A DNA stretch of 58,749 nucleotides from a virus (Duplodnaviria; Caudoviricetes). Under the pieces are notes generated by a model that did no database searches, was not told the origin of the DNA, and worked only from the letters and a program-made list of their open reading frames with translations. The stretch spans positions 1 through 58,749 of the IMG/VR virus record IMGVR_UViG_3300037487_001109, one strand, 5' to 3'. Both the position numbers and the translations under genes were made by a program. Shown here piece by piece: positions 14,386 to 33,531 of this stretch; position 1 is the first letter of the stretch, and every line of letters begins with the position of its first letter.

Positions 14386-14414
14386 AGTCTACAGGTAGTT
14401 AGGTACACAGTCAA
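14386..14414 (-). promoter_or_regulatory. Sigma70-like promoter, leaderless start of the HNH gene
   Basis: TTGACT-17-TAGACT, 6 nt before ATG 14379. Confidence 0.65.
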
Positions 14415-14416
14415 TG

Positions 14417-14542
14417 ACTGACTATATAACTTTTTGTTTGATAATGTGAAATAATTGGGTGGGGTATGTATGGTCAAGTACTGATTATATAACTTTTTGT
14501 TTGATAATGTGAAATAATTGGGCGGGGTATGTATGGTCAGGT
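14417..14542. repeat. 63-bp tandem duplication (2 copies) in the non-coding putative genome-end region
   Basis: actga[c/t]tatataactttttgtttgataatgtgaaataattggg[t/c]ggggtatgtatggtca[a/g]gt x2. Confidence 0.9.
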
Positions 14543-14755
14543 CAACTGGAAGGCCCGCCCCCCCTTCCTATATACTACTTTTATCTAATACAATTTCACT
14601 ATATATAAATATACCTACCCCGGGGGTTTCCTGGATCTCTCTCCGTGCCGTGTTTTGAAATTAAAAGATACCTGCCACTTTCAGATTATTCGCTCTACCG
14701 CACGAGTTCAAACTAATAACCTAAACGAGAACATGAAAACTAATCACTAACGGCT

Positions 14756-14787
14756 CGTGCGCGTGCGCATACGTGTGTGTGTGTGTG
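14756..14787. other. 32-bp perfect purine-pyrimidine alternation including a (GT)n tract
   Basis: cgtgcgcgtgcgcatacgtgtgtgtgtgtgtg. Confidence 0.85.
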
Positions 14788-14823
14788 ATGTGTCTTGGCG
14801 CGTGGAAGATTAGAACTTTTTGT

Positions 14824-14853
14824 TTGACATGCTTTGATTAATTATGCTAACGT
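14824..14853 (+). promoter_or_regulatory. Early sigma70-like promoter
   Basis: TTGACA-18-TAACGT with extended -10 TG, upstream of the early operon. Confidence 0.6.
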
Positions 14854-14896
14854 GGAAAGTACTGGAATAATCCAGCAAAAATTGGAGAATAATAAA

Positions 14897-15187
14897 ATGA
14901 ATAATATAAATAAAACCGAAGTCGGCCCCGAGATGCGCGAGAATATACTGGAAAGAATGCGTGATATCTTTTATTCAAATGAAAGGTATTATGATGGGTG
15001 TAACGCAGAAGTACTGCGTGATATCCAAGATAACGCGACAGTAAACCAACTGCTCTCTATTTTATTTACCATGCAAGCTGGAAGATTCTTTAAACTTACT
15101 GCACGCGATTATCTAACCCACACTGTATTCCTAAACCAATCGGGAATGGTAATAGGAATAGAGACCGATGGTTATACGCACTCTTAA
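14897..15187 (+). CDS. Early hypothetical protein
   Basis: AAAATTGGAG RBS then ATG 14897. Confidence 0.7.
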   Translation: MNNINKTEVGPEMRENILERMRDIFYSNERYYDGCNAEVLRDIQDNATVNQLLSILFTMQAGRFFKLTARDYLTHTVFLNQSGMVIGIETDGYTHS

Positions 15188-15199
15188 ACTAATGCATTA

Positions 15200-15220
15200 G
15201 ATATCAGCTCTGCTGATATC
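15200..15220 (+). promoter_or_regulatory. Intergenic hairpin (RNase III-like processing site candidate)
   Basis: gatatcagc-tct-gctgatatc, extendable by a lower stem, no U-tract. Confidence 0.55.
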
Positions 15221-15222
15221 GC

Positions 15223-15241
15223 TGGATTAATTTAAAATTGG
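15223..15241. repeat. 19-bp direct repeat, copy 1 (copy 2 at 15673-15691), flanking radC
   Basis: tggattaatttaaaattgg in both places. Confidence 0.9.
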
Positions 15242-15250
15242 GGTAAACAA

Positions 15251-15685
15251 ATGGATACAAATAAATTACGAGAAGTAGTCGTGTCTTTTAAAAAAACAAA
15301 TAAAACTTACTCAAGCATCAGGCGTGCTAGTGATGTCGCTGCAGTAGTACGTAAATGCTTAATAACAAATGCTAAAGAGAACTTTATAGCGCTATACCTA
15401 GATGGAGCGCACGCAGTTATAGCCTATTCAGTAGTCAGTGTAGGCCTACAGAATGCAACACAAGTACACCCAAGAGAGGTGTTCCAAGCTGCTATACTCT
15501 GCGGGGCACGCGCATTAGTAGTGGCGCATAATCATCCAAGTGGCTGCCTTGAACCAAGTAACGCAGACAAAGAAGTAACAAAAAATTTAAAATCAGCCGG
15601 AGATTTGCTAGGTATAAAACTATTAGATCACGTGATAGTTACTGAAACGTCAGAATACAGTTTTATGGAGAGTGGATTAATTTAA
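15251..15685 (+). CDS. radC: RadC-family JAB/MPN domain protein
   Basis: E...HPREVF...AHNHPSGCLEPSNAD...LLDHVIV. Confidence 0.92.
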   Translation: MDTNKLREVVVSFKKTNKTYSSIRRASDVAAVVRKCLITNAKENFIALYLDGAHAVIAYSVVSVGLQNATQVHPREVFQAAILCGARALVVAHNHPSGCLEPSNADKEVTKNLKSAGDLLGIKLLDHVIVTETSEYSFMESGLI

Positions 15686-15701
15686 AATTGGAGAAAACAT
15701 T

Positions 15702-15956
15702 ATGACAATTGAGAAGACTGAGAGCGAATTAATACAAGAAGCATGGGAAGTACAGAATGCGTGTAACCTATCCGGAGTGGTGCATAGTTTTAGCGCTGCA
15801 ATATCTAGGCTGTGGACTATATACCAGACCGAAAATAAAAAATTCAGCACTACGGATATAGCCGAGCATATAGTCAGTAAATTATATGCGAGCAAAATCA
15901 TGTCATTATCCGGAGACCTGCCAATTGATCTATCAAGCTATGGTATTAAATATTGA
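15702..15956 (+). CDS. Early hypothetical protein
   Basis: AAAATTGGAG RBS. Confidence 0.7.
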   Translation: MTIEKTESELIQEAWEVQNACNLSGVVHSFSAAISRLWTIYQTENKKFSTTDIAEHIVSKLYASKIMSLSGDLPIDLSSYGIKY

Positions 15957-15958
15957 TT

Positions 15959-15997
15959 TGATTTAGTCAGAGACCTGACAGGTCTCTGATTAAATTA
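15959..15997 (+). promoter_or_regulatory. Long intergenic hairpin (RNase III-like site candidate)
   Basis: tgatttagtcagagacctg-a-caggtctctgattaaatta. Confidence 0.6.
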
Positions 15998-16034
15998 GTT
16001 CAATTATGGGCTAATTAAATTGGATAACAAAAAC

Positions 16035-16553
16035 ATGGAATTATTAATTAATCACACTAGCGAATCAAATGCTTATGAAGTTGCTGACTATCCATATGGG
16101 TACACGGCGAGATGTAAGATTAGATACTGGATTGAAACAACTAAGCACAAGCAAAGATCCTGCAGGCAGACCACCAATCCAAAAACCGGCCGATGGAATA
16201 AGCCGCAAAAATCGACCTACAGTGATTTAGTGGTATTATTTATTGAAGATGATACAGGGCACGTAAAACGCACTAGTTATAATATTCAATATGGTGAATA
16301 TCCTACATGGAAAACTTTTTTAGAGAAGTATCAATCTGTACTAGTATCACCTTATGAAATAGCACGGATAAAATACGGTAACGCGATATTTAGGGCACGT
16401 GAAATCCTGTATATTAAATCATTGGAACACTGCGCTTCCGGTAATATCTATGATGTACCGCAGAATTTTCGCGGTAAAATATCAACGGAAGCACTGTTAT
16501 TGGCCGCGAAAGAATCGGGATATGGCTTTAAATCAAGTTTAATGGAGGCATAA
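16035..16553 (+). CDS. Conserved early phage protein
   Basis: DYPYGYTARCKIRYWIET...TTNPKTGRWNKPQKSTYS; AAATTGGAT RBS. Confidence 0.7.
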   Translation: MELLINHTSESNAYEVADYPYGYTARCKIRYWIETTKHKQRSCRQTTNPKTGRWNKPQKSTYSDLVVLFIEDDTGHVKRTSYNIQYGEYPTWKTFLEKYQSVLVSPYEIARIKYGNAIFRAREILYIKSLEHCASGNIYDVPQNFRGKISTEALLLAAKESGYGFKSSLMEA

Positions 16554-16774
16554 TGGAACCGATTAAAACATTGCAAGAGAGGTTATTAGCTGCAGGAGTT
16601 GGAATAGATCATCATTGTAGTGATTTATACTTCCCAGTCAGTGAAATCAGTAATAAGATACTGAGAGAGTATACGCTTGAATCTGCTATCAAGCCGAGTG
16701 TAGGCGCCTTTATCTGTAATATATCCAAAGCGCCTTGGTATGAGGTGCCTTTTCATTACAGTAAGACAGAATAG
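16553..16774 (+). CDS. Small conserved phage protein
   Basis: IDHHCSDLYFP...WYEVPF; GGAGG RBS, coupled start. Confidence 0.7.
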   Translation: MEPIKTLQERLLAAGVGIDHHCSDLYFPVSEISNKILREYTLESAIKPSVGAFICNISKAPWYEVPFHYSKTE

Positions 16775-16816
16775 TTAATATGATAGCAGGCTTTAAAACC
16801 TGCTATCGCTTAACTA
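16772..16816 (+). promoter_or_regulatory. Stem-internal loop-stem hairpin (RNase III-like site candidate)
   Basis: tagttaa/tat/gatagcagg...cctgctatc/gc/ttaacta. Confidence 0.6.
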
Positions 16817-16849
16817 GTCAATCACGGCTAGTAAATTGGAGTAAATTAC

Positions 16850-17080
16850 ATGAAAGCAGGCAAAGCACTGACGGAGATACCAAGATTTAACATAGTTAAA
16901 ATAATAACTAATGTGATTAATAACGCACTAAGCATTGAGCACGAGATACTTAAAACTGACATTATTCAATCTGAGATTAGAATCAGCTATTTGAATGCAT
17001 GCAAAATCCATGGTGCTGATACTATCCGCGTAGAATTAGCACGGTTGTACACACTGGAAGAATTGTTAATAGATGCATAA
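16850..17080 (+). CDS. Early hypothetical protein
   Basis: AAATTGGAGTAA RBS. Confidence 0.65.
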   Translation: MKAGKALTEIPRFNIVKIITNVINNALSIEHEILKTDIIQSEIRISYLNACKIHGADTIRVELARLYTLEELLIDA

Positions 17081-17111
17081 TTTAAATTTAATAAAATTGG
17101 AGATTACTAAT

Positions 17112-17801
17112 ATGGAGCGTTTTAGAGACTTTCATCCCTCATCATGGGATTCAAAAGCTAACTATGTAGGCCAGTCAGATCACAATCATTGGTATGTTTT
17201 TAATATAATGAAGACAAGGGACGCGGATTTACTAACAGAGTCCAATTGGGATTATATCTGTAAAGAGCTTGAACCGGATGAAATAGCAGGCTGCGAGGTG
17301 CATACGTTCGGTCATTGGGCATGTGGTCATTATGATTTGATACTTATTCATCCTTGGCATAAAAAACTATTGGAAAAGGCACGAGACTTGGAAAAGCAGT
17401 TAGCTAGTTATCCTGTTTTAAACGAAGCTGATTATAACGCTAGATGTGAAATCGAGATTGATCGGCAATGGGATGACTTCGCACGTGACGATTTTATATC
17501 AGAATTATCAAAGTATACCGAGCTGGATTTAACAGAGTACAGCTCCGAGCAAATAGATGCTCTCTATTATTTCCTGCAAGAGATATCTGGCACCTATAGA
17601 GGTAGTTTTACTGAAGAGCCCAACTTTCATATAGAAGAGATTTGTCGTATCTACGGCACCACAATAACTAAAGAAGTCTATATGCCATGTATATTTGAGC
17701 GCAAAGTCAAAAACTTTCCAATTTCAGATAGCATGCTAGACCGTGTAATGAATCCAAAAAAGTATCACGAGCCCATTAATCAGATTAAATTATTTGAATA
17801 G
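17112..17801 (+). CDS. Conserved early phage protein
   Basis: RDADLLTESNW...FGHWACG...YPVLNE; AAAATTGGAG RBS places the start at 17112. Confidence 0.7.
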   Translation: MERFRDFHPSSWDSKANYVGQSDHNHWYVFNIMKTRDADLLTESNWDYICKELEPDEIAGCEVHTFGHWACGHYDLILIHPWHKKLLEKARDLEKQLASYPVLNEADYNARCEIEIDRQWDDFARDDFISELSKYTELDLTEYSSEQIDALYYFLQEISGTYRGSFTEEPNFHIEEICRIYGTTITKEVYMPCIFERKVKNFPISDSMLDRVMNPKKYHEPINQIKLFE

Positions 17802-17857
17802 TTAGGTTTGGCTTCCAGTTGATCTCTACCTTTCACCTGGAAGTCACTAGTTAGCTA
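17799..17857 (+). promoter_or_regulatory. Interrupted hairpin after the last early gene (RNase III-like site candidate)
   Basis: tagttag...tggcttccag...ctggaagtca...ttagcta. Confidence 0.5.
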
Positions 17858-18012
17858 ATATCAACTAACCAAATTGGATATTTTAAAATAAAAATTACCT
17901 GTTCAAAATATGAACAGTTAAAAATTGGACGCTATCTCCCTAGATAAACAGCCATAATTACGCTGACTTATGAAAAAGACCCTTCCAAATGTCCTGTTTT
18001 GTCCCTTAATCT

Positions 18013-18088
18013 AAACTAGGTTACTCCAATTTCCTAGTTTGCCCCTCTTCCAGTTTAGACTTATGAATTAAACTGGAAGAGGTTTTTT
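18013..18088 (+). ncRNA. Candidate small RNA: stem-loop exposing anti-RBS TTACTCCAATTT, followed by a terminator
   Basis: aaactagg-[ttactccaattt]-cctagttt; the loop is the exact reverse complement of 16833-16844. Confidence 0.45.
18044..18088 (+). terminator. Intrinsic terminator of the early operon
   Basis: 14-bp stem cctcttccagttta/taaactggaagagg followed by T6. Confidence 0.85.
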
Positions 18089-18101
18089 CTTGTGTCAGCC
18101 T

Positions 18102-18599
18102 ATGAATATTCTACCACTAGCCCTATCCGCCTGCCTGCTCTGCTATGCAATACCGATAGCCCCAAGCACACATAACAATACAAACAGCCTGACTAGTTCT
18201 ATCCATACACCCACAAGCATTCACCAGCTAATAGCAAAGCACGCCAAATCTAAAGCCATACCGATAGCCCTAGTCACAAGAATTGTTAAGCAGGAATCAA
18301 GTTTTAACCCAAAAGCCAAACGCTACGAACCAAGCCTCAGAGCTCATAGCCTTGGACTTATGCAAATAATGGATAACTACTGGGTAAACTCTAAGACCTG
18401 TCCCTTCATAAAAGCCCCGGCTGACCTCCTGGACGCCGATTTAAACCTCAAATGTGGTACTTCCATACTTAGATCCCTTCTGTCTAAATATCCTAGCACC
18501 AAGGATGCTCTCATAGCCTACAACGGGGGAGAAAACTGTTTTCTTTCTCCAAAATGCCTGACTCAGAGCTCTCTCTACGCAGAAAAAATTCTTAGCTAA
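18102..18599 (+). CDS. Soluble lytic transglycosylase (SLT) with N-terminal signal/SAR-like segment
   Basis: QESSFNPKA, GLMQIM, AYNGG motifs; hydrophobic N-terminus. Confidence 0.88.
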   Translation: MNILPLALSACLLCYAIPIAPSTHNNTNSLTSSIHTPTSIHQLIAKHAKSKAIPIALVTRIVKQESSFNPKAKRYEPSLRAHSLGLMQIMDNYWVNSKTCPFIKAPADLLDADLNLKCGTSILRSLLSKYPSTKDALIAYNGGENCFLSPKCLTQSSLYAEKILS

Positions 18600-18639
18600 A
18601 TATTTCATAAAAAGACAAAACTGCACTTTCCAAATACAG

Positions 18640-19024
18640 GTCGGCACACTTTTGTATTTTTTAGAAAAAGCTGAAAGTGCCTTATATTCGATTTGGCCAA
18701 AAAGTGTGCCGACCTACCTGTTTGTGTGCCGACCTAAAACAGGGTCGGCACACCCCTGTAGCCCATTGAAATCATTAACGAATCCAGGAATAAAACAACT
18801 TCGTGTGCCGAGTGCCGACCTATTTCCAAACTTTTCCTTATATATAGTAATAAATAATACTATTGTTCCAGTAGTATATCTTATATATATATCTTCATAT
18901 ATGTTATTTATTAAAGAATAGTCGGCACACCGGCACAGACACACTTTTTCCTTGGGCATATCAACCGCTTACCCCCTGTGCCGACCCCTGTGCCGACCCC
19001 ATTTTAGGTCGGCACAGTCGGCAC
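18640..19024. other. Putative replication origin: GTCGGCAC/GTGCCGAC iterons around an AT-rich core
   Basis: 10 exact copies in both orientations plus 2 variants; AT-rich 18830-18920; adjacent to the primase-helicase 3' end. Confidence 0.75.
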
Positions 19025-19037
19025 AGAACAAATTGTT

Positions 19038-21527
19038 CTATTGTAGTGCCTCTAGACCCACTGCTCCGGTGCCTCCAGCCGAGCTTTTACTAAACTTTAT
19101 TTTGTAACTTCTGGTCTGTACCCCCTTTACCCTTACTCTTCTACACTCGCACCTGAAATTTCCCTTCAGCATAGCCCCAAGAGCCGCCGCATTTAGTCGT
19201 TTATCACTCATACCGTGCCTTTCTAGTGCCTCATTCACATACGCGAGTATCTCTGGCATGGTATGCCAGTCATTATCCTCTCCTGGTGCCTCTGGTGCCA
19301 CCTCAAATAGCCCCTGAATAAAGCTCTCACCTGTAAAATGCTCTGACTTGTAATCTTCCAGACTCATCACCACCTCCAACGGCACCACCATGTGCCCTCT
19401 CTCCCTCATCCGCCTATAGCCCTCCAGTGCCCAGTTCATAATCCCAGACAACTCCTCTTTAAGCATCTGCTGCAATTCCAACTCTTTTGCGCCACTTGGA
19501 ATAAACTGCCTTACATATGGAATGATGCACAATCGGCGCAGGATGCCATAGTTCTCACTCTGTGGTATGGGTCTATCGTTGCACCCAAGATGGAATTTTG
19601 CCCTGTTAGGCACATCTCTCTCCTCAGCATATAGCTTGCGTGCCAGTATTGTAGGGCCTGTGAGGTTCTTTACGAGCCCCTCATTCCACTGGGTCTTAGT
19701 ATCCATGTCATCCACAATTACCACCCTCTTGCCCTCAATTTTGGCTCCTACGCGCTCTAATTCCTTCTGGAAGGCAGTAGGGGACTTGGCGAACGTGGTG
19801 CCGGACATCAACGTAGCGTAACCACCCATAAGCATTGACAGTGCCTGGAGTACTTTACTCTTCCCGTTGCTGCCACCTCCATAGTGGATATAAATCTTCT
19901 GCTCACTTATGTACCCAGTTAAGCTGTAGCCAAATAGCTCCTGCATGAACCCTACCATACCTTCCGGGTCATCATTATCCGCAAACACTTCAGCCATAAA
20001 CGTTTCCCACCTTGGGCACGTGGCTTTTGGGTCATAGTAAACATTACTCCTGTGCAACAGGTAATCCTCTGCCTTAGCCTCTCTTAGCGTGCTGTTTGTC
20101 ATGCTAAATACCCCGTTTAAACAGTATGAAAAATCAGGATTAGCATCAAAAAACGTAGCCTCCACTTTTCTGATATACTTAGAGCTCAATACTCTGGTAA
20201 TAACCGAGCTTATAAACTGCCCTGACTGGTATTTGTCTAGTGCTACTTTTGCCTTGTCACCTGGAAAAGCCGTCAAAAACCCCGGATCACAGAATATATC
20301 CCTGCAGCACACATCTACAAAATGAGATATAATCTCGTTGCGTGCCCTCTGATTGGCCCATATCAATATATCCTCATTAAAGGCATATAGGTCGTTATCG
20401 ATGCACACAAGCATCTTCCCATAACGCTGCAGAACTCTCTGCATAGTAGCCATACAGGAAAATCTATTAACAAACAGCGGGCCTTCATCGTACACATAAG
20501 AGTAAATCCCTTTAAAGCCGTTTGTAGGCGCCTGTGCAATCTCTTCCAGTTTAACCAGTAGAGCCTTATCGACTTTAGACTTCTTCTCCATATTCTCAGA
20601 GGCTACTCTAAGCGCAGATTCAAATGTCTTAATGGCTTCTGCGTGCTCAAGCGGTCCTCCACATTCCTCTGAAAATGCTTGATTAATCGTATCGGTATAT
20701 ACTTCCAGGTGCTCAGTATCAATTACACCATCTTTCCCGCACTCAAGAGCCTCTTTATACACTTGATGCCAGAGCGCTGTGTTACGGCCGGACTTTGTTA
20801 CATCAATGGTGCCGCCCCTCTTCTCAAACCGTTTAAATTCAGCTTTCAGGCGTTTTGATTCTTCTTTTTTGGCCTCAAGAGCCAGCTTGTAATACTCATC
20901 GTGCCAAGGAAAGAGCTTGTGCAAATCAACTACACCTATAGGGGCAGCCTCTCTTTCCCCTATAATCTTAGGCATAAACTCTTTGCCATCCTTACAAATC
21001 CTTGGCACTCCCGGAACTCTTATTGTCTTTGTAGTAGTGTCTAGAGTTTTATCCCCATTAAAATACTGAGCCAAAGCCAATTGATAGTGCTGCCATGCCT
21101 CGATTGGCACATTCTCAATCTTCCAGTATAAATGGTACTTCCCGCCTGCTTCTGGTAGTAAGCTTGATAGCGAACTACAAACTGCCAGATGCGGAGAAAA
21201 CTCTTCCCAGATACTTGCAACCTTGTCAGCGTGAATTGGTTCATCTATATCAACACACAGTACTCTTGTGTTTAAGACGCCCTCTTTCCGCCTGCCTTTG
21301 GCATCCATAGCGTTAAGAGTAACGTGCAGTGTAGGAGATACCTCTGAGAGCACTTCCAGTGTAGACAGAATAACCGGAACTGTCTCAAACATAGTTCCAT
21401 AACCTTTTAACTGGTGCTTGGAAGCAAAGTCCAGCAGGCAGACTGTAAAATAAGATGCGTCAGGGTCGAGGAATTTAAAGAATAATTCAATATCCTCTTT
21501 ATTAATCTGCATATGCCTTCCACCCAA
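19038..21527 (-). CDS. Primase-helicase (RepB-like/AEP primase, D5_N, P4-family SF3 helicase)
   Basis: LCVDID, KYHLYW, TIRVPG; GRNTAL; Walker A YGGGSNGKS; RRLCIIPY. Confidence 0.88.
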   Translation of the reverse strand: MGGRHMQINKEDIELFFKFLDPDASYFTVCLLDFASKHQLKGYGTMFETVPVILSTLEVLSEVSPTLHVTLNAMDAKGRRKEGVLNTRVLCVDIDEPIHADKVASIWEEFSPHLAVCSSLSSLLPEAGGKYHLYWKIENVPIEAWQHYQLALAQYFNGDKTLDTTTKTIRVPGVPRICKDGKEFMPKIIGEREAAPIGVVDLHKLFPWHDEYYKLALEAKKEESKRLKAEFKRFEKRGGTIDVTKSGRNTALWHQVYKEALECGKDGVIDTEHLEVYTDTINQAFSEECGGPLEHAEAIKTFESALRVASENMEKKSKVDKALLVKLEEIAQAPTNGFKGIYSYVYDEGPLFVNRFSCMATMQRVLQRYGKMLVCIDNDLYAFNEDILIWANQRARNEIISHFVDVCCRDIFCDPGFLTAFPGDKAKVALDKYQSGQFISSVITRVLSSKYIRKVEATFFDANPDFSYCLNGVFSMTNSTLREAKAEDYLLHRSNVYYDPKATCPRWETFMAEVFADNDDPEGMVGFMQELFGYSLTGYISEQKIYIHYGGGSNGKSKVLQALSMLMGGYATLMSGTTFAKSPTAFQKELERVGAKIEGKRVVIVDDMDTKTQWNEGLVKNLTGPTILARKLYAEERDVPNRAKFHLGCNDRPIPQSENYGILRRLCIIPYVRQFIPSGAKELELQQMLKEELSGIMNWALEGYRRMRERGHMVVPLEVVMSLEDYKSEHFTGESFIQGLFEVAPEAPGEDNDWHTMPEILAYVNEALERHGMSDKRLNAAALGAMLKGNFRCECRRVRVKGVQTRSYKIKFSKSSAGGTGAVGLEALQ

Positions 21528-21728: not shown

Positions 21729-21855
21729 ATATTTTATCTTGCAGTAGAGTTTGAATCGTGCCTAATATGCTTGCATAGCTTACAGGTGGTCTAATTACAT
21801 TAGCCAAGAGCAGGCTTGTTAGCAAGTACCTAAATTTTAATTGGAGAAAATATTT

Positions 21856-22074
21856 ATGAACAACGAACGCACACTTGACAGCATCACCCTTTATCAGGAT
21901 GAACTTGAATCACTCCTGGTAACCGCCTATAGACTCTGTGAGTCCAGACTGCGGATGCTGGCAGAGCCGGTGTTTTCCCAAAAAGAGATTACCGAAGATA
22001 TAAAACACCTTGTTGCCAGTGCCAGAGTGTTCTCAGATGATAGTGAAATGATGGATGTACTTGTATGCGATTAG
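21856..22074 (+). CDS. Hypothetical protein
   Basis: AATTGGAG RBS before ATG 21856. Confidence 0.6.
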   Translation: MNNERTLDSITLYQDELESLLVTAYRLCESRLRMLAEPVFSQKEITEDIKHLVASARVFSDDSEMMDVLVCD

Positions 22075-25398: not shown

Positions 25399-25491
25399 AT
25401 GGCATGTAGATGTTTCGGCGTATGTACTTGTGGTGTGGCTTTAGGGCCTGCTACACCGTGCTGTGCTCCTCACTGGAGTGAAGATATTTAA
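25399..25491 (+). CDS. 30-aa Cys-rich micropeptide
   Basis: MACRCFGVCTCGVALGPATPCCAPHWSEDI; TATAAT 6 nt upstream; stop overlaps the next ATG. Confidence 0.5.
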   Translation: MACRCFGVCTCGVALGPATPCCAPHWSEDI

Positions 25492-28725: not shown

Positions 28726-29938
28726 TAAAGAATTGAATCACAAAGAAAGAGCCCACGCCCCATTTGGTGGCTCAGTAGCAGCACGCAGGATTAACTGTAC
28801 CGGCAGTTACTTCCTGGAGTCCCAGCTCCCCCCACAGCCAGCTTCCGCTGCAGCTGACGAAGGCACTGAAGCACATGAATGTGTGGAGTGGGCACTTGCA
28901 GATTTCCTCTATCGCAAAATCGAAGGTGAGGGTATAGATTTAGTAAAGCCAGTACACTTTAACAAGTACGCGCAGTTCGCGGAGGATTATGTCGACACCG
29001 TATGGACAAAGGCACTTCATAGCTCTATTACAGGAAAGTCGTATGCTATCGAGACGATTGTTACTATTAATGAGTCTCTGGGTATGTACGGGCCTTGTGA
29101 TTTTGCTTGCGTTTACTCAGACGAGCGAGGCCGTAGTTGTGCTATTGTTATCGACTATAAACATGGCTACAACTTTGTTCCTGTTGAAAAAAACGACCAG
29201 CTTGCACATTATGCTTGCGGATTACGCGAAGATGTACGCAGAGCTGGCAAAGACCTCGAGTACATACGAGCTGCAATTTACCAACCTCGCGCAGGTGGTG
29301 AAACATATAGAGAGGTTACTTTCACCGCAAAGTTTCTGGACAGCTGGAAAAAGCGTGCAATCAAAGCCGCCGAACAAATTTTCGTTAGTAAAAAAGCGAA
29401 GTTCAAGTGCGGAGAATGGTGTAAATTCTGCAGAGCCAAGCCAGTCTGTAAAGCGTATGCTAAGCAACGAACGATAGAGACCCAGCTTAACCTCGTTGAC
29501 CACGCTACAATTGAACTGCCAAAAGTTGATATGCTCTCCCCAGAGCACATAGTTAAACTGGTGCTGCATGGGGATAAGCTTATAGACCTTGTTGAAACTG
29601 CAAAGAAGATAGCCTTTGATGGCTGTGCGGCCAACGGCGAGTTTCACGGTTTAAAACTCGTTGAGGGTCGTGGTAAACGTGGCTGGGATAAGGGCCAAGA
29701 TGAAGACGAGATTGCCACCCAGATGAAGCAGCACGGTATCAAGACCCCCTATAAAGAATCTCTCCGTGGTATTACGGAAATTGAAAAGGAGCTTAAAAAG
29801 TTAAAGCCTGAAGCACAGGCCAAAGAGCTCATGGACTGCTGGACTACAAAGTCAGTCCCCAAAATTCTAGTTGATTCGACTGACCCGAGACCGGCTGTTG
29901 CCTGTGCTAAGGATATGCTTGAAGCAATTGGAGATTAA
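28715..29938 (+). CDS. Cas4-like PD-(D/E)xK nuclease (DUF2800 family)
   Basis: HAPFGGS..RRINC, EGTEAHE, GPCDF, IDYKHG, QLAHYA, WCKFCRAKPVC. Confidence 0.85.
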   Translation: MTNNKELNHKERAHAPFGGSVAARRINCTGSYFLESQLPPQPASAAADEGTEAHECVEWALADFLYRKIEGEGIDLVKPVHFNKYAQFAEDYVDTVWTKALHSSITGKSYAIETIVTINESLGMYGPCDFACVYSDERGRSCAIVIDYKHGYNFVPVEKNDQLAHYACGLREDVRRAGKDLEYIRAAIYQPRAGGETYREVTFTAKFLDSWKKRAIKAAEQIFVSKKAKFKCGEWCKFCRAKPVCKAYAKQRTIETQLNLVDHATIELPKVDMLSPEHIVKLVLHGDKLIDLVETAKKIAFDGCAANGEFHGLKLVEGRGKRGWDKGQDEDEIATQMKQHGIKTPYKESLRGITEIEKELKKLKPEAQAKELMDCWTTKSVPKILVDSTDPRPAVACAKDMLEAIGD

Positions 29939-29964: not shown

Positions 29965-30657
29965 ATGGCTGAAAAGATAAGCAAACATAAAACATACGGA
30001 TTCGTGTACGGAATTTCCAACAAAACCCCGCTGGGCAGACTGGCATGGGTTAATCTGGTTACTCCAAAAGAATCTACTTTCCCAGTTAAAGAGGGCGATA
30101 AGGTTCCGGCACCACGCTATGAACTTACCCTGCTACTTAAGAAGAGTGACCCAAAGGTAAAGGCCTTTGTTGCAGAACTCGAGCTACAGAAAAAAGAAAT
30201 GGTTGAGCTCTTTAATGAAGGCAAGAAAACAAAGATTGGTATAGACGAAGTTATTAAGGATGGGGATGAGATGGATACAGACTCCTATCCTTTCTATGCT
30301 GGTAACTACTACATGGTGCCAAAGAAAGAACAGCGCCCTCCTATCTATGACTCAAATGTAGAGCCAATAGAACCCGGAGCTGTCATAGGCGGTATGCCTG
30401 GACTTTGTGTAGTTCGTCCAATCTGCACCTCTCATGGTATCAGCTACCAGCTGCTTACTGTGCAGCTTGGGAAAGATGATGGCGTGAGATTTGGCGGAGG
30501 AAAGTCTGACGCTAAAGCACTATTAACCGCATTAGGAGATGAAGATGATGCACCATTTGATGAATCTGCTGAAGAGACTCCTGTTAAAACTAAAGATGTT
30601 GTAGCCGGAAAAGCTAAAGCACAAAAAGGTCAGCTTAATTTAGATAAGTTGGCATAA
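29965..30657 (+). CDS. Single-stranded DNA-binding protein (DUF2815/T7 gp2.5-like)
   Basis: GRLAWVNL, IKDGD, VQLGKDDGVRFGGG, acidic tail; between the DUF2800 nuclease and PolA. Confidence 0.78.
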   Translation: MAEKISKHKTYGFVYGISNKTPLGRLAWVNLVTPKESTFPVKEGDKVPAPRYELTLLLKKSDPKVKAFVAELELQKKEMVELFNEGKKTKIGIDEVIKDGDEMDTDSYPFYAGNYYMVPKKEQRPPIYDSNVEPIEPGAVIGGMPGLCVVRPICTSHGISYQLLTVQLGKDDGVRFGGGKSDAKALLTALGDEDDAPFDESAEETPVKTKDVVAGKAKAQKGQLNLDKLA

Positions 30658-30664
30658 ACAAGTT

Positions 30665-30746
30665 TTCGTATTTTCACTCCAATTTTAATACGAGCGTCTT
30701 ACTAGGACGTTAAAACGGTTGGCTTAGCGGTAAAAGTAACCGCCCT
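30665..30746 (+). ncRNA. Structured intergenic RNA; first loop is anti-RBS TTCACTCCAATTTT
   Basis: ttcgtatt-[ttcactccaatttt]-aatacgag, then cgtctt/aggacg and gcggt/accgc hairpins. Confidence 0.4.
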
Positions 30747-30759
30747 TTTATCCCTCTTT

Positions 30760-33531
30760 ATGCAGCAAAAATCTTTCAACATAGATTTCCAAGCCACCCC
30801 CTTTACCGTCCACTATATTCAAGAACCATCCATGGCGAAAATCGCCATAGACCACTTGATGAAAAAGGATGTACTGTTTGCAATCGATATAGAAACAATG
30901 GCGTTGCCGCAATTCCGCACTATCAATAAGGCAGGCCTGTCCCCGCACCTATCTAAAGTAAGGTTGTTACAGGTTTTTGATGGCACCAACATTTGCGTCT
31001 TTGATTTGAACTGGTTTCCAGAAGCATCACTTCAGATGTTTGTGCCATTCTTATCTAGTAAACGCTTCGTAGCGCACTATGCTCTGTTTGAACTTCAAAG
31101 GTTTATGCAGTGGGGAGTAGTCGATATGAACATCCACTGCACCTTGTTACTGGCAAAGCTTATGTATCATGCGGTGGTGCCAGATGACGCAGGTATCTCA
31201 GTAAGCCTTGATTCTCTGGCTAAAGAACTTCTAAGTATTGACCTTCCAAAAGCCTGCCAAGTCTCAGACTGGGGTGTGGAGGATTTAACATATGAACAGA
31301 TTGAATATGCAGCTCTTGATACTGTTGTCTGTCTAAAGCTTGCTGAGAAACTTGTTAAAGGGTTAGACAAGTATGGGCTACACAGAATCTATAAGCTCAC
31401 AAAAGATGCCCAGCACCCAATTGCCGTAATGCAATTAAATGGGTTTAAGCTTGACGTTGAGGCCCATAGAGAGCTTATCCCACAGTGGATTGAAGATCTC
31501 GTGCCTGCCAAAAGAAAGGTACAAAAGATTACAGGTATTCAAAGTTTAACAGCGCCTAAGTTAGGTTTATGGTTAGAACAAAACCTTGACCCGGCTACAC
31601 TTGCCATGTGGCCGCGCACCGATAGTGGAAAGATGTCTACGTCTGCTGACACCTTTGCAGACTTCTCGTACCACGAGATAGTTAAACCGTTTTTAGAATA
31701 CCAAAAGCGTGCGACTCTTTGTTCAACGTTTGGGCAGACTTTAATTAATCAGGTTAATCCTATGACGCGTAGGTTACACCCTACATTTAAACTGTTAGGT
31801 GCTAGGACAGGCAGGCTTAGCTCCTCTGAACCTAATTGTTTTGACGCGGATACTGAGATTCTGACAGATACTGGTTGGATTAAATTTCCAGAAATTACAC
31901 CTGCATCTAGGGTGGCCCAGTGGGATGATGGTATAATAACATTTACCTATCCTCTTAACGTAATTAAACAAGCGTATACTGGGGATTTAGTAGTACTTAA
32001 AAATCAGCACATAGATATGGTATGTACTGCTGAACACAGGTGCTTGTTACAGAATAGACGTAGTAAAAAATACTCTGTTGTAAAGGCTATAGACTATCTA
32101 CTGGATGCTAAGCAATTACATGCTGGAGTTTACGGTGATATGCCTAAACTAGACACCAGCTTCCTCACAACTGCACAGATACAGTTACTTGTAGCTACGC
32201 AAGCTGACGCCCATTTTCGGGATGGTGGTATAGAGTTTAGATTTAGAAAGAAAAGAAAGAGCGATAGACTACTGCGGATACTTAAAGCTTTGAACGCTAA
32301 GTATACAACTGGAAAACGTGCAGATAAGGCCTACTCTTATAGGATATATAAATCAGACTTAGTTACATGGATTCGTAGTATACTAACTGATAAAAAGATA
32401 TTCGGTAAGTGGGTTCTGGATTTTAGCTATGAGCAATTACGTATATTCTGTAATGAGTTATTTTACTGGGATGGGCTGGTAGTAAGGCGTTCTAATTACG
32501 CATCCTCTATAGAGACAAACGCAGATTGGGCACAGATTGCATTAACTTTATGCGGGTATAGAGCTAAAAAGAGAATCTATAAATACGGCCCAGACAAGAC
32601 CAGTAATAGCTATCAACTTGATATTACACATAGAGATTATTCAGGAACAGCAAACGTAAGTAAGTCTATAATACCAGTTAAAAATCAGGAGGTTTATTGT
32701 GTCGAAGTACCGTCATCATACATTGTTATCCGTAGGAATGGTTGTACAGCTATTACCGGTAACTGTCAGAATATGCCTAGAAACAATGAAATTCGTAATA
32801 ATTTCATTGCTGAAGAAGGATGCGTATTCTTGTGCGCTGACTATTCGCAGATTGAGCTTCGTATTGCAGCTGAAATTAGCGGTGATAAACAAATGCTTAG
32901 CGCCTATAGAGAAGGCACAGACCTCCACGCCCTCACAGCAAGCAGAGTTCTTAACAAAGCAATCAAAGATGTTACAAAAAAAGAGCGACAAATCGGGAAA
33001 GCTCTCGGACTTGGGCTACTATACGGACTTGGGGCTAGGAAGTTCAGCCACTATGTCAAAAAAGGCTATGCTAGAGATGGGGTTAGTGTATCCGAATCAG
33101 AAGCCTTCGACTACATTGAGAGATACCGCGAAACCTATCATGGACTCAGAGACTGGCAAATCAACCAAGCCGAACGTTGTAAAACTAGTCTCCGCGCAAC
33201 TACTCCATGCGGTAAAATTAGAAAACTTAATGAGCTCAACTACTACGGTGGAGGGCTTAATGTCCCTATCCAAGGGGCGGCTGCTGAAGTAATGCTGTAT
33301 GCTCTGGTAAAGCTTGAAAAGGCTTTCCGGGGCATCGGTAAGCTAGTAAATTGCGTACACGATGAAGTGCTGATTGAGGTAAAACCATCTTCAAAGGATT
33401 TAGATTTACTAAACTGTAGGCTTATGATGCAGGACTGTATGACTGAAGCCTACCTAGAGGTATTCCCAAAGGGGATTACTAAGAATTTAGTAGAGGCCTC
33501 AGAAGGCAAAACATGGGCTACGGCAAAATAG
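30760..33531 (+). CDS. polA: Family A DNA polymerase with 3'-5' exonuclease and intein
   Basis: AIDIET, YAALD, TGRLSSSEPN, ADYSQIELR, K..L.L.YG, VHDE. Confidence 0.95.
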   Translation: MQQKSFNIDFQATPFTVHYIQEPSMAKIAIDHLMKKDVLFAIDIETMALPQFRTINKAGLSPHLSKVRLLQVFDGTNICVFDLNWFPEASLQMFVPFLSSKRFVAHYALFELQRFMQWGVVDMNIHCTLLLAKLMYHAVVPDDAGISVSLDSLAKELLSIDLPKACQVSDWGVEDLTYEQIEYAALDTVVCLKLAEKLVKGLDKYGLHRIYKLTKDAQHPIAVMQLNGFKLDVEAHRELIPQWIEDLVPAKRKVQKITGIQSLTAPKLGLWLEQNLDPATLAMWPRTDSGKMSTSADTFADFSYHEIVKPFLEYQKRATLCSTFGQTLINQVNPMTRRLHPTFKLLGARTGRLSSSEPNCFDADTEILTDTGWIKFPEITPASRVAQWDDGIITFTYPLNVIKQAYTGDLVVLKNQHIDMVCTAEHRCLLQNRRSKKYSVVKAIDYLLDAKQLHAGVYGDMPKLDTSFLTTAQIQLLVATQADAHFRDGGIEFRFRKKRKSDRLLRILKALNAKYTTGKRADKAYSYRIYKSDLVTWIRSILTDKKIFGKWVLDFSYEQLRIFCNELFYWDGLVVRRSNYASSIETNADWAQIALTLCGYRAKKRIYKYGPDKTSNSYQLDITHRDYSGTANVSKSIIPVKNQEVYCVEVPSSYIVIRRNGCTAITGNCQNMPRNNEIRNNFIAEEGCVFLCADYSQIELRIAAEISGDKQMLSAYREGTDLHALTASRVLNKAIKDVTKKERQIGKALGLGLLYGLGARKFSHYVKKGYARDGVSVSESEAFDYIERYRETYHGLRDWQINQAERCKTSLRATTPCGKIRKLNELNYYGGGLNVPIQGAAAEVMLYALVKLEKAFRGIGKLVNCVHDEVLIEVKPSSKDLDLLNCRLMMQDCMTEAYLEVFPKGITKNLVEASEGKTWATAK
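31837..32763 (+). mobile_element. Intein (309 aa) with LAGLIDADG-type endonuclease
   Basis: SEPN|CFDADTEILT...VYCVEVPSSYIVIRRNG..AITGN|CQNMPR; LLVATQADA and ELFYWDG blocks. Confidence 0.92.

What the first reader, a model, noticed from the sequence alone, without database searches (positions are those of the whole stretch)
18013..18088. Stem-loop RNA whose loop is the exact antisense of the early-gene ribosome-binding motif
Seen: an 8-bp stem presents the 12-nt loop UUACUCCAAUUU, a perfect complement of AAATTGGAGTAA (16833-16844) and of the AAATTGGAG core at 14878, 15684 and 17093. It is followed directly by a strong intrinsic terminator, and no minus-strand start codon follows that would explain it as an antisense RBS. 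Inference: a 3'-UTR-derived sRNA, possibly released by cleavage at the 17799-17857 hairpin, that blocks translation of all early genes at once (built-in negative feedback) or of host mRNAs with GGAG SD sequences.
Basis: partly seen in the sequence, partly recalled or inferred. Interest (0 to 1): 0.8.

Follow-up and report, generated by a model that had tools for sequence, protein, structure and literature searches.

The report
Phage RNA hairpins mirroring early ribosome sites
An uncultured sediment phage carries two RNA hairpins whose open loops are the exact mirror image of the ribosome-binding motif of its own presumed early genes, so they probably damp translation of those genes by RNA pairing, but no transcript or effect has been seen.

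Summary
A hairpin at 18012-18041 shows the loop UUACUCCAAUUU, followed 3 nt later by a strong intrinsic terminator (18044-18088). The loop is the perfect antisense of AAATTGGAGTAA at 16833, and its AAATTGGAG core matches sites at 14879, 15685 and 17094. All four sites are ribosome-binding sites 8-9 nt before ATG codons.

New here:
- A second hairpin (30666-30693) has an unrelated stem but the same loop core ACUCCAAUUU. It lies 8 nt after the SSB gene's stop codon.
- An unrelated IMG/VR phage (L027) ends a small operon with a hairpin whose 15-nt loop contains a 12-nt antisense match to that phage's own, different RBS motif.
- In a control set of 1582 hairpins, only these two phages reach a loop-RBS match of 11 nt or more; controls gave none.

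Earlier reports of this scan describe the same architecture on other phage DNA.

Most likely the loop pairs with the extended RBS of the presumed early genes. It would act either in cis, as the operon's 3'UTR, or in trans, as a terminated or processed 3' fragment.

Not shown: expression, processing, pairing in vivo, or conservation. No close relative could be fetched. No general enrichment of such loops was seen.

Closest known: P1/P7 c4 RNA and the icaR 3'UTR. It matches no Rfam family.

The parts
18012..18041 (+). Hairpin H1: 8 Watson-Crick pairs plus one G-U pair, 12-nt loop
   Evidence: -8.9 kcal/mol, z -4.1; kept in the MFE and centroid of the whole 300-nt spacer
18021..18032 (+). H1 loop TTACTCCAATTT, antisense of the early-gene RBS motif
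18044..18088 (+). Intrinsic terminator: 15-pair stem, 9-nt loop, T6. Its 3' arm holds GGAAGAGG, 7 nt before the TTG at 18090
30666..30693 (+). Hairpin H2: 7-bp stem TCGTATT/AATACGA (an eighth G-U pair on the + strand), 14-nt loop TTCACTCCAATTTT. Begins 8 nt after the SSB gene stop codon, upstream of the DNA polymerase gene
   Evidence: -5.1 kcal/mol, z -4.9; gene names
14879..14887 (+). RBS motif AAATTGGAG, ATG at 14897
15235..15246 (+). RBS motif AAATTGGGGTAA of the RadC-like gene (ATG 15251); pairs with the H1 loop over 12 positions through one G-U
   Evidence: -13.2 kcal/mol
15685..15696 (+). RBS motif AAATTGGAGAAA, ATG at 15702
16017..16025 (+). Weaker motif copy AAATTGGAT, ATG at 16035
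16833..16844 (+). RBS motif AAATTGGAGTAA, ATG at 16850. Perfect 12-nt partner of the H1 loop; with the flank, 16 of 17 positions match
   Evidence: -14.0 kcal/mol, best of 65
17094..17102 (+). RBS motif AAATTGGAG, ATG at 17112 (gene of the GHWACG-motif family)
21839..21846 (+). AATTGGAG RBS of a small gene, ATG at 21856
17871..17879 (+). Orphan sense copy AAATTGGAT with no start codon after it. In a relative about 90% identical, the same place is a full RBS followed by ATG
   Evidence: X3 record 22 and its loose end
17922..17930 (+). Second orphan sense copy AAATTGGAC with no start codon
17799..17857 (+). Long hairpin directly after the stop codon of the 17112-17801 gene.
   Evidence: structure only; cleavage not testable

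Best explanation
H1, and its paralogue H2, are RNA hairpins made as part of + strand phage transcripts. Their open loops base-pair with the extended ribosome-binding motif AAAUUGG(A/G)G(UAA) of the small genes at 14.9-17.1 kb, and of the gene at 21.86 kb. Pairing covers the Shine-Dalgarno sequence, so it would block 30S binding and perhaps create a double-stranded RNase target.

H1 lies at the very 3' end of that operon, just before its terminator. It can therefore act in cis, folding back on RBSs of the same polycistronic mRNA as the icaR 3'UTR does. It could also act in trans, as the terminated or processed 3' fragment, as the P1 c4 RNA does. H2, placed in the replication-gene transcript, would add the same activity when those genes are on, which would give a switch from early to middle expression.

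Shown: the hairpins, the terminator, the complementarity, its specificity for those RBSs, and the recurrence of the design.

Inferred: transcription, pairing in the cell, repression, and the timing classes of the genes.
For: 1. All 4 exact AAATTGGAG sites on the + strand are RBSs, and both exact antisense copies sit in hairpin loops in + strand intergenic spacers.

2. H1 and H2 share the loop core ACUCCAAUUU but have unrelated stems. The loop sequence is conserved and the stems are free to vary, which is the opposite of a repeated mobile palindrome.

3. Both fold better as + strand RNA (z -4.1 and -4.9) than as - strand RNA (z -1.8 and -2.0). Each gains a G-U pair that is possible only on the + strand. 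For H2, the - strand minimum-energy structure is not even the same hairpin.

4. Loop-target duplex energies over 65 initiation regions, against a median of -5.4 kcal/mol:
- -14.0 for the 16850 gene and -13.2 for 15251
- -10.5 each for 14897, 15702 and 17112
- -9.8 for 21856

5. The H1 loop is predicted unpaired (P 0.61). Five of the six targets lie above the transcript median of 0.03, at 0.10-0.30.

6. Control 1, over 163 sequences: about 22 antisense same-strand copies of recurrent RBS 8-mers were found. Only 3 have flanking perfect stems of 7 bp or more: H1 (8), H2 (7) and L020/L027 (11). All the others have 5 or fewer.

7. Control 2, over 118 non-redundant sequences, 1582 hairpins and 2111 SD-bearing initiation regions: a loop-RBS complementarity of 11 nt or more was found in 2 hairpins, H1 and L027 (12 nt each). 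Both control sets, reversed loops and complement-only loops, gave 0.

8. The analogue in L027 is independent of this phage.
- The loop TTATCGTTTCTCCTT carries a 12-nt antisense match to the RBS AAGGAGAAACGA.
- That RBS serves 3 small genes within about 900 nt upstream.
- The hairpin starts 15 nt after the last stop codon and lies between two strong promoter-like sites.
- The 10-mer occurs nowhere else exactly in the 42.5-kb record.
- The record is unrelated to this window apart from one shared gene family.

9. Such pairing has been shown to work elsewhere:
- the icaR 3'UTR pairs with its own SD (PMC3868564, abstract)
- aSD-like 8-mers hundreds of nt downstream pair with the RBS in cis (PMC12697547, abstract)
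- c4 RNA loops pair around an RBS (PMC12197685, passages)
Against: - No transcript data: no RNA run holds the sequence.
- No conservation test was possible. The only independent contig over H1 (X2) is identical, and the contig of the ~90% relative (X3) does not align over the 255 nt upstream of 18231 at 80% likeness or more. H1 may therefore be absent or diverged there.
- Anti-RBS loops are not generally enriched. Loop-RBS match lengths up to 10 nt are the same as in the controls. At the 10-mer level, 33 of 275 antisense hits lie in loops, against 35 of 293 and 21 of 197 in the controls.
- H2's spacer as a whole is not unusually structured (z -0.55).
- A closed 12-nt loop cannot form all 12 pairs without strain or stem opening (established RNA knowledge, not tested here).
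- Alignments to relatives break exactly at the motif (16018, 17872), and the spacer holds orphan copies. The motif may therefore be kept or spread by recombination rather than for pairing.
- CTCC depletion in the operon is not significant: 1 observed against 3.8 expected.
Confidence: 0.45

Rival explanations
1. Recombination relic without a regulatory role. The AAATTGG(A/G)G motif is a module-junction sequence at which gene cassettes are exchanged, as proposed for PeSL motifs in T4-type phages. The loop copies are inverted duplicates of such junctions that happen to lie in structural or terminator-associated hairpins.
For: - Homology with a ~90% relative ends exactly at the motif at 17872. There the relative carries a full RBS plus ATG, where this phage has an orphan copy. 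A second break lies at 16018.
- Two orphan sense copies lie in the same spacer.
- An 18-nt repeat, GGATTAATTTAAAATTGG, occurs at two gene borders.
- H1 and the 16833 RBS share 16 of 17 nt, as expected of an inverted duplication.
- PeSL papers exist (PMC2839356 and PMC4122927; search listing only).
Against: - An inverted relic does not explain why both antisense copies are framed exactly by perfect stems of different sequence.
- It does not explain why an unrelated phage shows the same design with another motif.
- No promoter-like site accompanies H1, as a PeSL would require.
Confidence: 0.22
2. The hairpin loop is a binding site for a protein, or a DNA-level site. Examples would be a phage RNA-binding regulator or nuclease that recognises the ACUCCAAUUU loop, or a DNA motif read in both orientations. 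On this view the complementarity to the RBS is secondary.
For: - The same 10-nt loop on two different stems fits a loop-specific RNA-binding protein as well as it fits antisense pairing.
- The motif is longer than an SD sequence needs to be.
Against: - The sense copies sit at a fixed 7-9 nt from start codons, as RBSs do, not near promoter-like sites.
- The L027 analogue has a quite different loop, but again it is the antisense of the local RBS. That points to complementarity rather than to one protein's site.
- No candidate protein was identified.
Confidence: 0.1
3. The released hairpin RNA targets host mRNAs with GGAG Shine-Dalgarno sequences, causing host shut-off, rather than the phage's own genes.
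For: The loop contains ACUCC, which would pair with any GGAGU.
Against: - Seven of the 12 loop bases match the phage-specific AAAUU and UAA flanks.
- Many of the phage's own later genes use GGAG or AGGAG sites and would be hit as well.
- The host is unknown, so no target search was possible.
Confidence: 0.06
4. A minus-strand RBS of an unrecognised small gene, or pure chance.
For: On the minus strand the loop reads as a perfect RBS motif. In L027, a 41-codon minus-strand ORF begins 30 nt after the GGAG.
Against: - No ATG, GTG or TTG lies within 5-13 nt after either motif copy in the window. The nearest frames have 6-8 codons (reading).
- Chance is excluded.
Confidence: 0.04

Closest known systems
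c4 antisense repressor RNA of phages P1 and P7 (Rfam RF01695; review PMC12197685, passages read)
   Same: - Phage-encoded.
- About 76 nt if H1 and the terminator are taken together.
- Complementary sequences are displayed in hairpin loops.
- The target includes an RBS on an RNA read from the same strand.
- Co-transcription with its target is recalled knowledge for c4.
   Different: - No sequence or structure match to the Rfam model.
- c4 lies upstream of its target in an immunity operon with icd/ant and is cut out by RNase P (recalled).
- Here the element lies at the 3' end, next to a terminator, and has six or more RBS targets.
icaR mRNA of Staphylococcus aureus: the 3'UTR motif UCCCCUG pairs with the SD of its own 5'UTR (PMC3868564, abstract read)
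   Same: - An anti-SD motif in a long 3'UTR.
- It pairs with the RBS of the same transcript.
- It blocks initiation and offers an RNase III substrate.
   Different: - icaR is a bacterial, monocistronic mRNA with one target.
- Here the transcript would be a phage polycistronic operon with several RBSs that share an extended motif, and a second copy sits in another operon.
CI RNA of satellite phage P4 (passage in PMC4825925)
   Same: A small RNA processed from the same untranslated transcript, which pairs with repeated complementary sequences (seqA, seqC) upstream and downstream of itself.
   Different: - CI causes premature transcription termination, not RBS occlusion.
- No Rfam match was found here.
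Cuckoo RNAs (CcsR, alpha-r14/NfeR) of Alphaproteobacteria (PMC4615179, abstract read)
   Same: The same loop motif on hairpins whose stems vary freely, with a pyrimidine-rich anti-SD-like loop.
   Different: - Their loop is CCUCCUCCC, on 2-4 adjacent hairpins of one bacterial sRNA.
- Here the loop is UUACUCCAAUUU, tuned to a phage-specific RBS, and the two hairpins lie 12.6 kb apart in mRNAs.
3'UTR-derived sRNAs that share the terminator of the upstream mRNA, such as CpxQ and SroC (recalled, no call)
   Same: The seed-bearing region lies directly upstream of the operon's own intrinsic terminator, and no promoter-like site of its own was found.
   Different: Processing, Hfq dependence and stability are unknown here, and the host is unknown.
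PeSL promoter-terminator cassettes of T4-type phages (PMC2839356 and PMC4122927, search listing only)
   Same: Short conserved regulatory motifs repeated at early-gene borders, where relatives differ by cassette exchange.
   Different: A PeSL is a stem-loop plus an early promoter. Here the repeated unit is an RBS, and the hairpin loop is its antisense.

Membership tests
Intrinsic (Rho-independent) terminator | G+C-rich stem-loop followed directly by a run of U on the transcribed strand | tested here: met
   15-pair stem 18044-18082 followed by T6 at 18083-18088 on the + strand. The minus strand has no T run after the stem.
c4 antisense RNA (Rfam RF01695) | Match to the family covariance model | tested here: not met
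   No Rfam family reached its gathering score in the window. RF01695 is not among the matches at E up to 10 in 17780-18110 or 30640-30780.
c4 antisense RNA (Rfam RF01695) | Loop sequences complementary to an RBS-containing target on a same-strand transcript | tested here: met
   The 12-nt loop is the perfect antisense of the RBS at 16833, with 9-12 nt matches to five further RBSs on the + strand.
c4 antisense RNA (Rfam RF01695) | Cut out of the operon transcript (RNase P); sits in an immunity operon with an antirepressor | not testable with these tools
   No RNA data. No antirepressor was sought or seen among the 20 proteins scanned.
icaR-type 3'UTR to 5'UTR pairing in cis | Anti-SD motif and target SD lie on one transcript | tested here: inconclusive
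   All genes from 14897 to 17801 are on the + strand, and the first strong terminator is at 18044. Weak terminator-like sites are listed at 16730 and 17547. No transcript map exists.
3'UTR-derived sRNA | A stable small RNA species that ends at the mRNA's terminator | not testable with these tools
   No RNA holder is listed.
Cuckoo RNA | 2-4 adjacent hairpins, each with the loop motif CCUCCUCCC | tested here: not met
   The loops are UUACUCCAAUUU and UUCACUCCAAUUUU, on single hairpins 12.6 kb apart. The motif definition is from PMC4615179.
PeSL cassette | Stem-loop joined to an early promoter | tested here: not met
   No + strand promoter-like site between 17800 and 18100.
ToxI antitoxin RNA (RF02519) | Score at or above the gathering threshold; tandem 36-nt repeats next to toxN | tested here: not met
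   21.3 bits against a threshold of 50, on the minus strand, in a single copy.

The most novel reading that the evidence does not exclude
Tailed phages of many lineages carry an uncatalogued class of operon-terminal hairpin RNAs. In each, the loop is written in the phage's own 'address code', the extended RBS shared by its early genes. One 30-nt element per operon would then time the shut-off of a whole gene class. H1 would act as self-limiting feedback on the early mRNA. H2, in the replication operon, would act as the trans signal that closes early translation when middle genes come on. Loop and RBS motif would have to evolve together, which would also explain why early-gene RBSs in such phages are conserved far beyond the Shine-Dalgarno core.
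Probability: 0.3. Interest if true: 0.8.

Novelty: new variant of a known kind. Interest (0 to 1): 0.6.

Why it matters
If the pairing is real, a phage can switch off a whole set of early genes with a 30-nt RNA hairpin and no protein. It would do so using an RBS 'address' that its own genes share and host genes lack.

- That would explain why early-gene RBSs in some phages are conserved well beyond the Shine-Dalgarno core.
- It would add a class of phage regulatory RNA that is missing from Rfam. My literature searches did not turn it up.
- It would give a compact, orthogonal translational off-switch for synthetic biology.

Tried and rejected
**Close relatives: none obtainable**
- blastn of 16500-19500 against the phage collection gave no match.
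- tblastn of the exonuclease gave a best identity of about 30%.
- The search for related loci in viral contigs with single proteins found nothing.
- With the alignment A1 it found only relatives at 45% identity or less: viral contigs, metagenome contigs, genome contigs.
- blastn of the window against all loci fetched by then gave only one 74-nt coding match.
- An exact 18-mer scan of viral contigs gave 2 hits, neither of which matched the window.
- The 90%-identical protein P0001 sits on a contig that the tools did not return.

**RNA evidence**
- No RNA holder is listed.
- Contigs of X2 are identical over 17830-18677. X3 and X4 do not cover H1.

**Rfam**
- Nothing at gathering score. Only chance-level matches at E up to 10.

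**General enrichment of anti-RBS loops: not found**
- My first versions of the scan were too lax and were dropped.
- timed out and was rewritten.

**Other negative or corrected points**
- CTCC depletion in the operon is not significant.
- I recalled that the PAK_P3 sRNAs are anti-RBS. Passages of PMC4933390 do not describe them as anti-RBS.
- A separate promoter for an sRNA gene was not found (and a reading of 17960-18012).
- A minus-strand small gene was rejected by reading the sequence.
- A 14-codon + strand ORF (17970-18014) that ends at the foot of H1 has no SD sequence and was not pursued.
- The host could not be identified.
- Earlier findings by place and by sequence gave nothing.
- Supplementary files of papers were not consulted.

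Full report
**What the window is**

The window is a complete or nearly complete IMG/VR virus record: 58,749 bp, CheckV completeness 95%, G+C 0.438. It comes from a sediment metagenome. It encodes the following recognisable proteins:
- a D5-type primase
- a helicase
- a PD-(D/E)XK-type exonuclease
- a Gp2.5-like SSB
- a family A DNA polymerase
- a weak large-terminase match

No cultured phage comes closer than about 30% protein identity.

The finding lies in the 300-nt spacer 17802-18101.
- Upstream is a 229-aa gene (17112-17801). Its family carries a GHWACG motif, and its start was fixed by alignment.
- Downstream is a secreted SLT-type transglycosylase gene (18102-18599).

**The observation**

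The hairpin is as described.
- Stem: 18013-18020 pairs with 18033-18040, plus a U-G pair at 18012/18041.
- Loop: TTACTCCAATTT at 18021-18032.
- Two unpaired bases later, a 15-pair stem (18044-18082) is followed by T6.
- The hairpin alone folds at -8.9 kcal/mol, z -4.1. It survives in the minimum-energy and centroid structures of the whole spacer.

AAATTGGAG occurs six times against 0.62 expected. The four + strand copies (14879, 15685, 16833, 17094) each lie 8-9 nt before an ATG. The two minus-strand copies are this loop and a site at 30677.

Weaker copies of the same RBS motif serve four more genes:
- 15251 (AAATTGGGGTAA)
- 16035 (AAATTGGAT)
- 21856 (AATTGGAG)
- the primase gene on the minus strand, loosely

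The motif is therefore an extended RBS, AAATTGG(A/G)G, of one gene set. I call these genes 'early' only by inference: they are small ORFs beside a divergent promoter-like region.

**A second copy**

The site at 30677 is also a hairpin loop. The stem TCGTATT/AATACGA (30666-30672 / 30687-30693) encloses TTCACTCCAATTTT. The hairpin begins 8 nt after the stop codon of the SSB gene and lies upstream of the DNA polymerase gene, again on the coding strand.

The two hairpins share the loop core ACTCCAATTT, but their stems have nothing in common. Both fold better as + strand RNA (z -4.1 and -4.9) than as minus-strand RNA (z -1.8 and -2.0). Each gains a G-U pair that only the + strand allows. This points to a + strand RNA element in which the loop sequence is what matters.

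**Targets**

I computed duplex energies of the two loops against 65 translation-initiation regions. The median was -5.4 kcal/mol.

| Gene start | H1 loop duplex energy (kcal/mol) |
|---|---|
| 16850 | -14.0 |
| 15251 | -13.2 |
| 14897, 15702, 17112 | -10.5 each |
| 21856 | -9.8 |

- H2's variant loop also matches the RBS of the gene at 25491 over 9 nt. That match could be chance.
- The H1 loop is predicted unpaired (P 0.61; the transcript's 90th percentile is 0.22). The targets are moderately open, at 0.03-0.30.
- With its flank, the 16833 site matches H1 at 16 of 17 positions. This fits either extended pairing or an origin by inverted duplication.

**Controls and an independent case**

I used the loci fetched through the GHWACG-family protein as an unselected phage sample.

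- Control 1 covered 163 sequences. About 22 antisense same-strand copies of recurrent RBS 8-mers were found. Only three have flanking perfect stems of 7 bp or more: H1, H2 and one hairpin in L020/L027. All the others have 5 bp or fewer.
- Control 2 covered 118 non-redundant sequences (45 of 163 were dropped as duplicates), 0.92 Mb, 1582 hairpins and 2111 SD-bearing initiation regions. The longest loop-RBS complementarity is distributed like the two controls up to 10 nt. At 11 nt or more there are two real cases, H1 and L027 (12 nt each), and none in either control.
- A laxer 10-mer scan shows no general enrichment: 33 of 275 antisense hits lie in loops, against 35 of 293 and 21 of 197 in the controls.

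The design is therefore rare in this sample, not a general property.

The L027 case is instructive.
- Three small genes have the RBS AGGAGAAACG.
- A 17-pair hairpin (-32 kcal/mol) follows, starting 15 nt after the last stop codon.
- Its loop, TTATCGTTTCTCCTT, carries a 12-nt antisense match to that RBS.
- It lies between two strong promoter-like sites.
- The 10-mer occurs nowhere else exactly in the 42.5-kb record.
- The record shares only one gene family with this window.

Two unrelated phages thus show the same architecture with different motifs.

Earlier reports of this scan describe the same architecture on other phage genomes. I did not check them, and they are not independent evidence.

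**What argues for caution**

- No RNA run holds the sequence.
- The only other contig that covers H1 (X2) is identical to the window.
- A relative about 90% identical (X3) aligns up to 17872 and then continues into a full RBS plus ATG, where this phage has an orphan AAATTGGAT. Upstream of 18231 its contig does not align at all.
- The spacer therefore holds relics of lost genes, and the motif coincides with recombination breakpoints. That gives the main rival reading: a junction sequence in the manner of the T4 PeSL cassettes.
- That reading does not explain why both inverted copies are framed exactly by stems, or why L027 repeats the design.
- No promoter-like site for a separate sRNA gene was found, so the RNA would be made as the operon's 3'UTR.

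**Mechanism and comparison**

I commit to RNA pairing between the loop and the extended RBS, at 0.45. Whether it acts in cis or in trans is left open.

Precedents read here:
- c4 RNA of P1/P7, whose loops pair around an RBS (PMC12197685, passages)
- P4 CI RNA (passage in PMC4825925)
- the icaR 3'UTR, which pairs with its own SD (PMC3868564, abstract)
- long-range aSD-like sequences acting in cis (PMC12697547, abstract)
- Cuckoo RNAs, with the same loop on variable stems (PMC4615179, abstract)

The element matches no Rfam family. My searches found no paper describing phage operon-terminal hairpins with loops antisense to the phage's own RBS motif. PAK_P3's sRNAs, which I had recalled as such, are not described as anti-RBS in the passages I read.

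I rate it a new variant of a known kind.

Noticed in passing
window 18638-19028: A dense array of about a dozen copies of GTGCCGACC, in both orientations, some forming perfect 11-16-nt inverted repeats. It lies in the spacer between the transglycosylase gene and the end of the primase gene. It looks like iterons, so it is a candidate replication origin or regulator-binding array.
   Followed up: partly
window 14410-14535 and 14811-14827: A 63-nt tandem duplication (94% identical) in the divergent region between the HTH-HNH gene and the small-gene operon. Its 17-nt core, TATAACTTTTTGTTTGA, recurs a third time just upstream of the operon. Strong minus-strand promoter-like sites lie within the repeats.
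   Followed up: partly
window 18068-18104: The transglycosylase gene starts (TTG 18090 or ATG 18102) directly after the terminator's T run. The only SD-like sequence, GGAAGAGG, is the 3' arm of the terminator stem. Its expression would therefore need read-through, and its RBS would be masked by the same hairpin.
   Followed up: no
window 17812-17820 and 18048-18056: The long hairpin after the 17801 stop codon and the terminator share the 9-mer CTTCCAGTT in their 5' arms, and the arms opposite them share its partial complement CTGGAAG (17841-17847, 18074-18080). This could reflect a duplication or an alternative long-range pairing (reading).
   Followed up: no
window 29926-29933 and 30673-30686: The SSB cistron is bracketed by a sense AATTGGAG, 31 nt before its ATG and too far away to serve as its SD, and by the antisense loop of H2 just after its stop codon. 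That geometry would allow 5'-3' pairing of that mRNA.
   Followed up: no
window 30760-33531: The 923-aa DNA polymerase has its polymerase matches split: an N-terminal exonuclease part and residues 668-920. The middle, residues 326-670, matches PHROG families labelled PhoH-like, ribonucleotide reductase and thymidylate synthase. Such a pattern often means an intein or another insert.
   Followed up: no
window 14755-14788: A GC/GT-rich simple repeat (…GCGCGTGCGC…GTGTGTGTGTGTG) lies just before the small-gene operon. The read-laying tool skipped it as a repeat.
   Followed up: no
window 17970-18014: A 14-codon + strand ORF (ATG 17970, TAA 18012-18014) ends at the foot of H1. It has no SD sequence. 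If it were translated, a terminating ribosome would open the H1 stem (reading).
   Followed up: no
L027 7925-8020: Downstream of the L027 hairpin there are two direct repeats of about 40 nt, ahead of the next promoter-like site.
   Followed up: no
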